Below, piece after piece: positions 12,390 to 12,708 of a DNA stretch of 44,223 nucleotides. Position 1 is the first letter of the stretch; each line of letters opens with the position of its first letter. Origin of the DNA: Escherichia phage EM1. Under the pieces are notes generated by a model, which was not told where the DNA came from, made no database searches, and saw only the letters and a list, made by a program, of their open reading frames with translations. The position numbers and the translations under genes were made by a program. Location of the stretch: sequence record PQ571293; one strand, written 5' to 3'.

Positions 12390-12449
12390 ACTATTTAGTT
12401 ATGTATTCCAGTTATTCCACTCAATTGTAAATGTTGGAATAAACTATTC

Positions 12450-12465
12450 GAATAGTTGACTTTTC
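12450..12465. repeat. perfect 16 bp palindrome AACTATTCGAATAGTT
   Basis: read directly; half-site ACTATTC matches the core shared by the promoter family. Confidence 0.7.
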
Positions 12466-12663
12466 ACCGAAAATATGATAAGCTCCACCTGAGCTTGTGA
12501 AGTATGAACAAGCGACCGCGGCGCGGGCAGGTAACGGAGCGGGACGTAAGTCCTGAGTGTAGTTACGCTGACGCGTTCGGAAGGGCCATACTCTATTGCT
12601 TGTGTAAAAAGTAACGGGTTTACTGAGATTACGCCGTTTCTATGTTTAAATGATAAGGACTAG

Positions 12664-12690
12664 CGCCCCGCTTTAAGGCGGGGCTTTACT
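12664..12690 (+). terminator. terminator-like hairpin (GCCCCGC-TTTAAG-GCGGGGC + TTTACTT)
   Basis: GC hairpin with weak T tract at the 3' end of a gene-free region. Confidence 0.4.
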
Positions 12691-12708
12691 TATCGAGAAA
12701 GGAGAAAC

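What the first reader, a model, noticed from the sequence alone, without database searches (positions are those of the whole stretch)
12390..12700. About 300 nt gene-free region with a perfect 16 bp palindrome and a candidate small RNA
No convincing ORF lies on either strand between the dam promoter and the spanin gene. The region contains a perfect palindrome AACTATTCGAATAGTT (12450-12465) built from two copies of the promoter-core half-site, immediately followed by TTGACT-N14-TGATAAGCT (-35 plus extended -10-like), and about 190 nt later a terminator-like hairpin (12664-12690) just before the spanin RBS. This could be an operator-controlled promoter producing a roughly 190 nt non-coding RNA, or a regulated leader for the downstream late genes.
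Basis: partly seen in the sequence, partly recalled or inferred. Interest (0 to 1): 0.5.

Follow-up and report, generated by a model that had tools for sequence, protein, structure and literature searches.

The report
Conserved structured phage leader RNA
The "empty" 300 bases in front of the phage's spanin (lysis) genes encode a roughly 200-nucleotide folded RNA, with its own promoter and a leaky stop signal; nearly all phages of this subfamily have it, no RNA database lists it, and its function is not yet known.

Summary
The window is a complete Kagunavirus-like genome (Guernseyvirinae). The finding is real, but the RNA matters more than the palindrome. The palindrome AACTATTCGAATAGTT lies at 12442-12457, 8 nt from the stated position. 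One perfect 16-mer palindrome per genome is expected by chance.

The promoter is TTGACT 12456-61, a 17-nt spacer, then TGaTAAGCT 12476-84. The hairpin plus partial U-run is at 12665-12693. Both are as described and conserved.

Between them lies an about 200-nt structured RNA:
- Its 5' domain (12493-12580) is supported by covariation: 94.7% of cells paired, 13 pairs with compensatory changes, 0 of 500 shuffles as good.
- G-U pairs place it on the + strand.
- The 36-aa ORF that GenBank records annotate here is broken in relatives.

The family has two alleles at this locus (A in about 178 phage records, J in about 268). It has paralogues (B, C) at a second locus beside the early genes. I found no Rfam, E. 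coli chromosome or literature match, and no similarity to HK022 put.

Best reading: a promoter-coupled leader/ncRNA unit whose read-through feeds Rz/Rz1, comparable to lambda PR'-6S-tR'. Cis action (attenuation or antitermination) is slightly favoured over a trans-acting RNA. That step is inference.

The parts
12405..12441 (.). Upstream promoter region with repeats: ATTCCA at 12405-10 and 12414-19, and inverted TGGAAT at 12435-40. ATGTTGGAATAA (12431-42) recurs at 13214-25.
   Evidence: The region is homologous to the upstream region of the type J allele. Its function was not tested.
12442..12457 (.). Perfect 16-bp palindrome AACTATTCGAATAGTT. It overlaps the -35 hexamer by 2 nt and is centred at about -41.5 relative to the predicted start.
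   Evidence: Searches give the position. It is not beyond chance (0.72 expected per genome). It is degenerate in allele J and broken by single changes in L011, L018, L026 and L041.
12456..12484 (+). Sigma-70 type promoter with an extended -10: TTGACT (12456-61), 17-nt spacer, TG (12476-77), TAAGCT (12479-84).
   Evidence: Sequence. The hexamers and the TG are kept in alleles A, B, C and J while spacer bases vary. The simple consensus scan missed it because the -10 matches only 3 of 6.
12491..12693 (+). Predicted transcript of about 200 nt (non-coding RNA or leader). The start at G12491/A12492 is inferred from the -10 position. The 3' end lies in the U-rich tail after the hairpin.
   Evidence: Inference from the promoter and terminator positions. 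The invariant block begins at 12488-12491, just after the variable discriminator.
12493..12513 (+). Hairpin P1 at the 5' end: GCUUGU, loop GAAGUAUGA, ACAAGC.
   Evidence: 100% of cells paired, with only U-A to U-G changes. The loop changes to AGAUAU in some locus-2 copies, and the stem shrinks to ACGCU-UUC-AGCGU in allele J.
12516..12580 (+). Long irregular hairpin P2-P3-P4. P2 pairs 12516-24 with 12573-80, with C12519 bulged. The middle stems pair 12526-35 with 12562-72. The apical P4 pairs 12540-45 with 12550-55, with loop GUAA.
   Evidence: Covariance model R1 scores 144 bits here. Covariation counts are: for example, pair 12522-12575 occurs as C-G, U-A and A-U, and P4 has 5 of 6 pairs with double changes.
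12581..12598 (+). Conserved unpaired tail AAGGGCCAUACUCUAUUG.
   Evidence: Nearly invariant across alleles A, B, C and J. It is partly shared with the unrelated locus-2 RNA of this window.
12598..12660 (+). A+U-rich 3' module. It contains a repeat of the P1 5' strand (GCUUGUG, 12598-12604) and ACUGAGAUUACGCCGU (12622-12637).
   Evidence: The motifs 'ACUGAU/GAUU' and 'GCCGU' are shared by all five RNA types. The concerted repeat is seen in both A and J.
12504..12614 (+). 36-aa ORF, annotated as a hypothetical protein in some GenBank records. Judged not to be a gene.
   Evidence: In relatives it is 9, 17, 19, 22, 34 or 41 aa long, or has no ATG, because of frame-shifting indels. It is absent from allele J.
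12665..12693 (+). Terminator-like hairpin GCCCCGC-UUUAAG-GCGGGGC followed by UUUACUUAU. Probably leaky.
   Evidence: The stem is kept by a compensatory change in L004 (CCCUGC/GCAGGG). The corresponding hairpin in allele J is kept by a compensatory change in L110. Allele J lacks the U-run.
12700..13204 (+). Downstream genes fed by read-through: SD AGGAG (12700-04), i-spanin Rz (12709-13095), embedded o-spanin Rz1 (12941-13204).
   Evidence: No promoter lies between the hairpin and the ATG; 24 nt separate them.
12354..12400 (-). Divergent promoter of the dam-like gene: TTGCAG (12389-84), 17-nt spacer, TACTAT (12366-61). It is one copy of a repeated promoter cassette. The imperfect palindrome AACTATTTAGTT (12389-12400) adjoins it.

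Best explanation
The interval is a self-contained transcription unit for a structured, non-coding RNA of about 200 nt. This RNA belongs to a family found only in Guernseyvirinae phages.

Proposed sequence of events:
1. Host sigma-70 RNA polymerase starts at about 12491 from a strong extended -10 promoter.
2. The nascent RNA folds at once into a 5' hairpin (P1) and a long irregular hairpin (P2-P4, 12516-12580) with invariant bulges and tail.
3. An A+U-rich module follows, then a GC hairpin (12665-12684).
4. In this allele the hairpin is a leaky intrinsic terminator. Polymerases that stop there release the RNA. Those that read through make the only evident mRNA for the Rz/Rz1 spanin genes, which start 24 nt later.

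I therefore read the unit as a promoter-coupled leader/attenuator, organised like lambda PR'-6S RNA-tR' in front of lysis genes. The conserved 5' domain would be a binding platform, for RNA polymerase itself or for a host or phage protein. It would act in cis on read-through or on the fate of the transcript.

Shown: the unit's anatomy, its conservation, its RNA structure, its strand, its non-coding nature, and its paralogy with a second locus.
Inferred: the transcription start, the leakiness of the terminator, and cis action.
For: Conservation:
- A sharp identity island (94-100%) covers 12425-12710 against Salmonella phage SETP13, while neighbouring genes are 58-78% identical.
- Nearly all subfamily members carry the unit at this place. 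Allele A is in 178 records and allele J in 268, out of about 463 records with a Guernseyvirinae capsid protein.

RNA structure:
- 94.7% of cells are paired, 13 pairs have double changes, and 103 cells are compensatory. None of 500 shuffles reached these values, and slid controls gave 28-40% pairing.
- Many G-U pairs fit only the + strand RNA.
- The ORF is not conserved.

Promoter coupling:
- The promoter elements are conserved, and the structured domain always starts within about 3 nt of the predicted start.
- Promoter and 5' domain were duplicated together to a second locus that heads the long rightward operon in relatives (types B and C).

Evidence for cis action:
- No promoter lies between the hairpin and the spanin ATG.
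- The upstream head genes end in a strong terminator.
- In allele J the 3' hairpin has no U-run, so transcription must largely continue into Rz.
- Both loci point into downstream operons that contain several internal terminators.
- No complementary target was found in the phage genome.
Against: - No expression data exist for any Guernseyvirinae phage in the searched literature. The start site, the 3' end and the abundance of the RNA are therefore predictions.
- At the second locus the RNA is followed by its own hairpin and then a separate promoter for the early genes. That layout looks like an independent RNA gene.
- The scaffold and capsid genes have their own invariant promoter, so a leader function would serve only Rz/Rz1.
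- No conserved alternative pairing links the 5' domain to the terminator. P4 and the terminator do not covary.
- Part of the identity island reflects recent exchange of the allele between Kagunavirus and some Jerseyviruses, not only purifying selection.
Confidence: 0.45

Rival explanations
1. Trans-acting non-coding RNA. The unit is an independent RNA gene, and the spanin genes merely use its leaky terminator. The abundant roughly 200-nt RNA, perhaps trimmed at the conserved GAUU site, binds or sequesters a host or phage protein through the conserved 5' domain, or base-pairs with host mRNAs through the A+U-rich 3' module.
For: - It has its own near-consensus promoter and a 3' hairpin kept by compensatory changes.
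- At the second locus the paralogues are followed by a separate promoter for the early genes.
- Invariant unpaired bases in bulges and tail suggest recognition by a partner.
- A 3' module is shared even with the structurally unrelated locus-2 RNA of this window.
Against: - Most 3' hairpins in the family lack a U-run, so discrete termination is doubtful.
- No conserved complementarity to any phage mRNA was found. The single 12-nt match, at 13014, is not kept in relatives.
- Both loci are always co-oriented with the downstream operon.
- Host targets could not be searched.
Confidence: 0.3
2. RNA-only processive antiterminator, a special case of cis action that works like HK022 put. The nascent 5' domain binds the polymerase that made it and makes it resistant to the hairpin at 12665 and to later terminators, without any phage protein.
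For: - The domain starts at +1 to +3 of a strong promoter, as putL does (paper PMC9378689).
- Paralogous copies head two rightward transcription units in relatives.
- The downstream operons contain intrinsic terminators directly in front of essential genes, at 10014-29 and 15059-80.
- No Q-type antiterminator family was found among 40 small phage proteins.
Against: - The domain shows no sequence or structure similarity to putL or putR. Model R1 finds nothing in the HK022 immunity region.
- P1 is not conserved in size.
- This window has only one copy.
- The capsid operon has its own promoter without the element.
- With efficient antitermination, a conserved terminator right after the element would have little purpose.
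Confidence: 0.15
3. The conservation reflects DNA-level events rather than an RNA function. The block would be a mosaic junction or recombination cassette exchanged between phages together with the variable reverse-strand gene, or a protein-binding DNA region such as an operator or origin.
For: - Allele A is about 96% identical between E. coli and Salmonella phages whose flanks are about 76% identical, while other Salmonella phages carry the very different allele J. That pattern implies exchange.
- The slot upstream holds different genes in different phages.
- The promoter region contains dyads and repeats.
Against: - Exchange does not explain the compensatory base changes, or the G-U pairs that work only in + strand RNA.
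- Within Kagunavirus the block is still more conserved (97%) than its flanks (84-91%).
- GC skew shows no feature at 12.5 kb.
Confidence: 0.05
4. The region encodes a small basic protein of 36 aa (MNKRPRRGQV...), as annotated in several GenBank records.
For: The ORF at 12504-12614 is intact in most type A copies and is annotated as a hypothetical protein in Schulenburg, Bas76 and others.
Against: - One-nucleotide indels truncate it to 9 or 17 aa in some type A phages.
- Paralogues read 19-41 aa in other frames.
- Nine loci lack the ATG, and allele J has no such ORF.
- No Shine-Dalgarno sequence precedes the ATG, and the ATG sits in the loop of P1.
Confidence: 0.03

Closest known systems
Lambda late leader: PR' promoter, 194-nt 6S RNA, terminator tR', read through under Q into the lysis genes S, R and Rz (my own knowledge of the lambda literature)
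   Same: A strong promoter, a terminated transcript of about 200 nt, and a position directly in front of a lysis gene (here Rz/Rz1). Downstream expression requires read-through.
   Different: - No Q-like protein family was detected.
- No conserved -10-like pause element is present.
- The lambda leader is not a conserved, covarying structure.
- Here the holin and endolysin genes lie elsewhere, and the capsid genes have their own promoter.
HK022 putL/putR polymerase-utilisation RNAs (PMC9378689)
   Same: A structured RNA that begins at the very start of a transcript from a sigma-70 promoter. Paralogous copies sit at two operon heads in relatives. No dedicated antiterminator protein is evident.
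   Different: - No sequence or covariance-model similarity.
- A different architecture: a short variable hairpin plus a hairpin of about 65 nt, against two stems of about 35 nt with a triplex.
- Antitermination activity is untested.
- The host phage is a virulent siphovirus, not a lambdoid.
Phage and prophage small RNAs with their own promoter and terminator (for example lambda oop, P22 sar, prophage IsrK and DicF; my own knowledge)
   Same: A short, independently transcribed non-coding unit in a phage genome.
   Different: Those RNAs are antisense or seed-pairing RNAs with known targets. Here no target was found, the conserved part is a large folded domain, and most family members lack a proper terminator tail.
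Bulk catalogues of candidate structured RNAs in viral contigs (PMC10690425)
   Same: The same type of evidence: conserved intergenic structure in IMG/VR phage contigs.
   Different: I could not establish whether this motif is among the roughly 10,000 unnamed candidates. The paper text does not mention spanin genes or Salmonella phages, and mentions Escherichia only in two reference titles. The motif is not in Rfam 15.

Membership tests
Any Rfam 15 family | Covariance-model match at the gathering score, or at least a weak E-value | tested here: not met
   No hit at gathering score in the whole window. At E<=10 on 12300-12750, only three chance-level hits of 14-16 bits.
HK022 put RNA | Sequence and structure similarity to putL/putR | tested here: not met
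   Model R1 gave no match at E<=1 in the HK022 region holding putL and putR (L059). No similarity on reading the sequences.
HK022 put RNA | Lies at or near the start of a transcript from an early sigma-70 promoter, upstream of terminators | tested here: met
   P1 starts 2 nt after the predicted +1. The hairpin at 12665 and later terminators lie downstream. The start site itself is a prediction.
HK022 put RNA | Two or more paralogous copies per genome, behind different promoters | tested here: inconclusive
   Two copies in many relatives, but a single copy in this window and in Bas76.
HK022 put RNA | Suppresses termination in cis without phage proteins, and depends on the beta' zinc-binding domain | not testable with these tools
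   Needs in vitro transcription or rpoC mutant hosts.
Lambda-type Q-dependent late leader | Promoter, short terminated leader RNA, then lysis or late genes | tested here: met
   Promoter at 12456-84, hairpin at 12665-84, Rz ATG at 12709.
Lambda-type Q-dependent late leader | A Q-family antiterminator gene in the phage | tested here: not met
   Pfam scan of 40 small or unassigned proteins. No Q family appears among the 25 families listed, out of 35 at E<=0.01. None is annotated in Jersey or Bas76.
Lambda-type Q-dependent late leader | A -10-like pause element in the initially transcribed region | tested here: inconclusive
   TATGAA at +13 to +18 matches 4 of 6 but lacks the final T. It is replaced in locus-2 variants and absent from allele J.
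Intrinsic (Rho-independent) terminator | GC-rich hairpin followed directly by a U-run | tested here: met
   7-8 bp stem plus UUUACUUAU in this window. The tail is imperfect. Allele J has the hairpin but only UUAGCGUAU, so this feature is not family-wide.
Seed-pairing trans-acting sRNA | Conserved complementarity to a target mRNA | tested here: not met
   Within the phage genomes only chance-level matches. The 12-nt match at 13014 is not conserved. Host transcripts were not testable.
Protein-coding gene (36-aa ORF) | Reading frame and start codon conserved among homologues | tested here: not met
   Frames and lengths differ, and the ATG is missing in 9 loci and in allele J.
Operator palindrome | Dyad symmetry beyond chance, conserved among homologous promoters | tested here: not met
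   0.72 such palindromes are expected per genome. It is degenerate in allele J, absent from types B and C, and broken by single changes in several type A phages.

The most novel reading that the evidence does not exclude
The 5' domain may be a new class of RNA that binds the transcribing host RNA polymerase. That would make it a second, structurally unrelated example of protein-independent, put-like antitermination or anti-pausing. It would be used by a whole subfamily of virulent siphoviruses to carry polymerases from two dedicated promoters through the terminators of their long rightward operon.
Probability: 0.15. Interest if true: 0.8.

Novelty: new variant of a known kind. Interest (0 to 1): 0.6.

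Why it matters
Guernseyvirinae (Kagunavirus, Jerseyvirus) are among the most often isolated E. coli and Salmonella phages proposed for therapy and food safety. The collection I searched holds about 460 of their genomes.

Almost all of these genomes carry this unit. Where records annotate anything at this spot, it is a short 'hypothetical protein' that is probably not real, so correcting it would improve hundreds of annotations.

The biological interest is broader:
- A core, covarying RNA domain is welded to a strong promoter.
- It has been duplicated to the head of the early operon in many relatives.
- It is swappable with an unrelated 5' domain at that second locus.

This is a clear, experimentally tractable candidate for RNA-based control of transcription or RNA fate in a virulent phage that uses only the host polymerase. 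If it acts on the polymerase itself, RNA-only antitermination would extend beyond the HK022 group.

Tried and rejected
- Rfam at gathering and permissive thresholds: nothing.
- tRNA/tmRNA search: nothing. A 'tRNA-Ser' annotated near the J allele in phage ER21 lies upstream on the other strand and is not the RNA.
- E. coli chromosomes (megablast and blastn): no homologue, so the RNA is not a mimic of a host RNA at the sequence level.
- Bacterial species genomes: 7 pattern hits. Six failed the covariance model and count as chance matches; one is Jerseyvirus contamination.
- A degenerate P1-loop pattern in viral contigs produced mostly chance hits, which model R1 did not confirm.
- Literature: no paper on transcripts, small RNAs or this sequence in Guernseyvirinae.
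- Antisense targets inside the phage genomes: only chance-level matches.
- Replication-origin idea: cumulative GC skew turns at about 44 kb/0 and about 31 kb, not at 12.5 kb.
- CRISPR-repeat mimicry by the terminator stem CCCCGC/GCGGGG: rejected because the stem sequence is not conserved (L004, allele J).
- Riboswitch-style competition between terminator and antiterminator: no covarying alternative pairing was found.
- Kink-turn and sarcin-ricin motifs in the conserved internal loop: no fit on reading the sequence.

Full report
**What the window is.** BLAST of the interval against GenBank phages gives 180 records, all Escherichia, Salmonella, Shigella or Raoultella phages or records named Kagunavirus, most at 95-99% identity. 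Those I opened are Guernseyvirinae. The annotated relatives are Kagunavirus (Schulenburg) and Jerseyvirus (SETP13). The window ends join to each other: a repeated promoter cassette spans 44206-44223 plus 1-20. It is therefore a complete, circularly permuted genome of 44.2 kb. The finding lies between a reverse-strand dam-like methyltransferase gene (11636-12343) and the Rz/Rz1 spanin genes (12709-13204).

**Checking the observation.**
TTGACT is at 12456-61, followed by 14 nt and then TGATAAGCT at 12476-84, an extended -10 with a 17-nt spacer.
- The hairpin GCCCCGC-UUUAAG-GCGGGGC is at 12665-84, followed by UUUACUUAU.
- The perfect 16-bp palindrome is at 12442-12457, 8 nt upstream of the stated coordinates, and it overlaps the -35 hexamer.
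- A perfect 16-mer palindrome is not remarkable. Shuffled genomes carry 0.72 on average, and this window has a second one at 42576-91.
- The half-site AACTATTC is mildly enriched, with 6 copies against 1.16 expected. It resembles the -10 region (TACTATTC) of the phage's repeated promoters.
- A 36-aa ORF (12504-12614) exists and is annotated as a hypothetical protein in several records.

**A conservation island.** Against Salmonella phage SETP13 the structural genes on both sides are 75-78% identical overall. In 50-nt windows, identity is 94-100% from 12425 to 12710 and falls to 58% just after the spanin ATG. Within Kagunavirus the block is about 97% identical and the flanks 84-91%. Part of this island reflects exchange of an allele between phage genera, as described below. 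Exchange cannot explain the structure evidence.

**It is an RNA, not a protein.** Exact-pattern scans of IMG/VR and GenBank loci gave several dozen distinct copies. They fall into types.
- Type A is the window's form, in front of the spanin genes.
- Types B and C are paralogues at a second locus.
- Type J is the form in phage Jersey and most Salmonella phages, at the same place as A. Model R1 scores it at 38.8 bits, E=3e-9.

A covariance model built from 23 sequences finds exactly one copy in the window, at 12483-12598 with 144 bits, and nothing else at significance. On the model-based alignment of 36 distinct sequences:
- 94.7% of pair cells are standard pairs.
- 13 of 29 pairs show changes on both sides that keep the pair, in 103 cells.
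- None of 500 column shuffles reaches these values.
- Sliding the 3' partners by 1-3 columns drops pairing to 28-40% (the same picture without type J is).

One caveat applies: the alignment is fitted to the model. Even so, the raw sequences show the swaps directly. Examples are GUAAC/GUUAC against GGAAC/GUUCC, GGGAC/GUCCU against GUGC/GCAC, and pair 12522-12575 as C-G, U-A or A-U. Frequent G-U pairs would be C-A on the other strand, so the folded molecule is the + strand transcript.

The ORF fails every test:
- One-nucleotide indels cut it to 9 or 17 aa in some type A phages.
- Paralogues read 19-41 aa in other frames.
- Nine loci have no ATG.
- Type J has no such ORF.

**Anatomy in the window.**
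- The predicted start is G12491/A12492, 7-8 nt after the -10. The three bases before it are the only variable ones in the neighbourhood.
- P1 is a 5'-terminal hairpin at 12493-12513.
- P2-P3-P4 is a long irregular hairpin at 12516-12580, with an invariant bulged C12519 and a conserved 3' internal loop GAGUGUAG.
- An invariant unpaired tail, AAGGGCC...CUAUUG, runs to 12598.
- An A+U-rich module follows at 12598-12660.
- The GC hairpin with its tail occupies 12665-12693.
- The spanin Shine-Dalgarno sequence is at 12700-04 and the ATG at 12709.
- The single-sequence fold agrees with this layout but is only modestly better than shuffles (z=-2.1). The case rests on comparison between sequences, not on folding energy.
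- The 3' hairpin is also kept by compensatory changes: L004 in type A and L110 in type J.

**Distribution.**
- Type A covers at least 80% of the query in 178 records, and type J in 268.
- About 463 records carry a capsid protein at least 60% identical to the window's. The next relatives drop to 42% or less.
- The unit is therefore close to universal in this tight subfamily, and I did not find it outside.
- There is no hit in 5,426 E. coli genomes.
- In 185,579 species genomes there are six pattern hits that failed the covariance model and count as chance matches, plus one contaminating Jerseyvirus scaffold.
- The coexistence of two very different alleles implies recombinational exchange of the whole cassette. 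Allele A is nearly identical between E. coli phages and a subset of Salmonella phages. The slot just upstream holds different reverse-strand genes in different phages.

**The second locus.**
- In many Kagunaviruses a paralogous promoter plus 5' domain (types B and C, 76-86% identical to A) sits next to the divergently transcribed HTH/excisionase-like gene. That is the head of the long rightward operon.
- There it is followed by an A+U-rich module, a GC hairpin, and then a separate promoter (TTGCAC, 17-nt spacer, TACTAT) for the early genes.
- In this window the corresponding place (43850-44140) holds a different unit. It has its own promoter, a strongly structured but unrelated 5' part (z=-5.6) and a GC hairpin, and it is conserved in 397 records.
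- Its 3' part aligns with the 3' module of types A, B, C and J.
- These RNAs are therefore modular: a swappable 5' domain joined to a common 3' module.

**How it most likely works.**

The evidence for a cis-acting leader or attenuator is as follows.
- The spanin genes have no other promoter. The hairpin ends 24 nt before the ATG.
- The upstream head genes end in a strong bidirectional terminator.
- In type J the hairpin has no U-run, so polymerase must largely continue into Rz.
- Across the family, only types A and C have partial U-runs.
- Both loci always point into downstream operons, which contain intrinsic terminators directly before essential genes, for example at 10014-29 and 15059-80.
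- Promoter and 5' domain were duplicated as one piece.
- No complementary target exists in the phage genome.

Three observations weigh against a pure leader.
- At the second locus a separate promoter follows the RNA.
- The scaffold and capsid genes have their own invariant promoter at 13204-13232.
- I found no covarying alternative pairing between the 5' domain and the terminator.

I therefore rank the readings as follows:
- Cis-acting leader/attenuator, organised like lambda PR'-6S-tR': about 0.45.
- Trans-acting protein-binding or base-pairing RNA: 0.30.
- Specific put-like RNA-only antiterminator: 0.15.
- DNA-level explanations: 0.05.
- Small protein: 0.03.

The put-like reading is attractive. 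The domain starts at +1 to +3, as in putL (PMC9378689), and no Q-type protein family appears among 40 small proteins. But there is no sequence or model similarity to put.

**The palindrome.** It is centred at about -41.5 from the predicted start and overlaps the -35 hexamer. Such a position could suit an activator or a repressor. However, it is within chance expectation. It is not kept in type J (ACTTTATTCAAAAAGT) or in types B and C. Single uncompensated changes break it in several type A phages. I treat operator function as unsupported, not excluded.

**Unexplained.**
- The 7-8 nt after CUAUUG repeat the 5' strand of P1 in both locus-1 alleles: GCUUGUG in A and GCUUUCAG in J. This is a concerted change that pairing explains only partly.
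- A local hairpin CCGC-GGN-GCGG can compete with P2 in every allele. One sequence keeps it by a double change (L022).

**Novelty.** The motif is not in Rfam 15 and was not found in the searchable literature. It may be one of thousands of unnamed candidates in a bulk catalogue (PMC10690425). It is a new RNA family of a known general kind, a phage promoter-proximal leader or small RNA. Its function is open.

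Noticed in passing
window 43850-44140 (+): A second gene-free, strongly structured unit. It has TTGACA (43854-59), a 17-nt spacer, TAAGGT (43877-82), long hairpins (z=-5.6) and a GC hairpin at 44113-33. It is conserved in 397 phage records. Model R1 does not match it, but its 3' part aligns with the 3' module of the finding's RNA. It occupies the place where relatives carry the type B and C paralogues.
   Followed up: partly
window 12358-12389(-), 21894-21925(-), 1293-1340(+), 44206-44223 joined to 1-20(+): A repeated promoter cassette of about 45 bp, TTGCAC-N17-TACTATTCACTTATCG, sits in front of four gene blocks. 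One copy spans the window ends, which shows that the window is a complete, circularly permuted genome.
   Followed up: partly
window 13199-13260 (+): An invariant promoter, GAATAGTTGCCT-N17-TATTCT (13204-13232), lies inside the 3' end of the o-spanin gene. It is followed by a conserved leader hairpin CCGGG-NGG-CCCGG in front of the scaffold gene. It is identical in Jersey, SETP13 and Schulenburg.
   Followed up: partly
window 38120-38152(-) and 40745-40776(-): Two near-consensus minus-strand promoters share the spacer TTGACA-N3-GAATAGTT-N6-TATAGT, in front of replication-gene blocks. The GAATAG/CTATTC motif recurs around many of this phage's promoters.
   Followed up: no
L010 4337-4364 (type B RNA, phage Golestan) and other type B loci: A (CTCA)n microsatellite lies inside the type B RNA. 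It has 3 to 7 copies depending on the phage and forms a C-rich, unstructured stretch.
   Followed up: no
window 11581-11601 and 19443-19462: Two nearly identical bidirectional terminator hairpins, AAGGCCCC...GGGGCCTT, sit at the points where + strand and - strand gene blocks meet.
   Followed up: no
window 10014-10029 and 15059-15080 (+): Strong terminator-like hairpins lie directly in front of essential genes (head morphogenesis; the genes after the major capsid gene), with no room for a promoter. Read-through must therefore be routine in the rightward operon.
   Followed up: no
window 11636-12343 (-) and the same slot in relatives: The slot upstream of the RNA holds a different reverse-strand gene in different phages: a dam-like methyltransferase here, endonuclease VII in SETP13, a 'sliding clamp' in Schulenburg, a 67-aa ORF in Bas76, and nothing in Jersey. 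It behaves as a hotspot for inserted genes.
   Followed up: partly
PLSDB record CP088689.1; genome scaffold NZ_JACVEL010000048.1 (L119): A 44,086-bp 'plasmid' from an E. coli blood isolate is a Kagunavirus genome. A 738-bp scaffold in a Taishania pollutisoli assembly carries a Jerseyvirus type J RNA and is probably contamination.
   Followed up: no
window 42576-42591: A second perfect 16-bp palindrome, CGGCGTCATGACGCCG, lies inside the helicase-primase gene.
   Followed up: no
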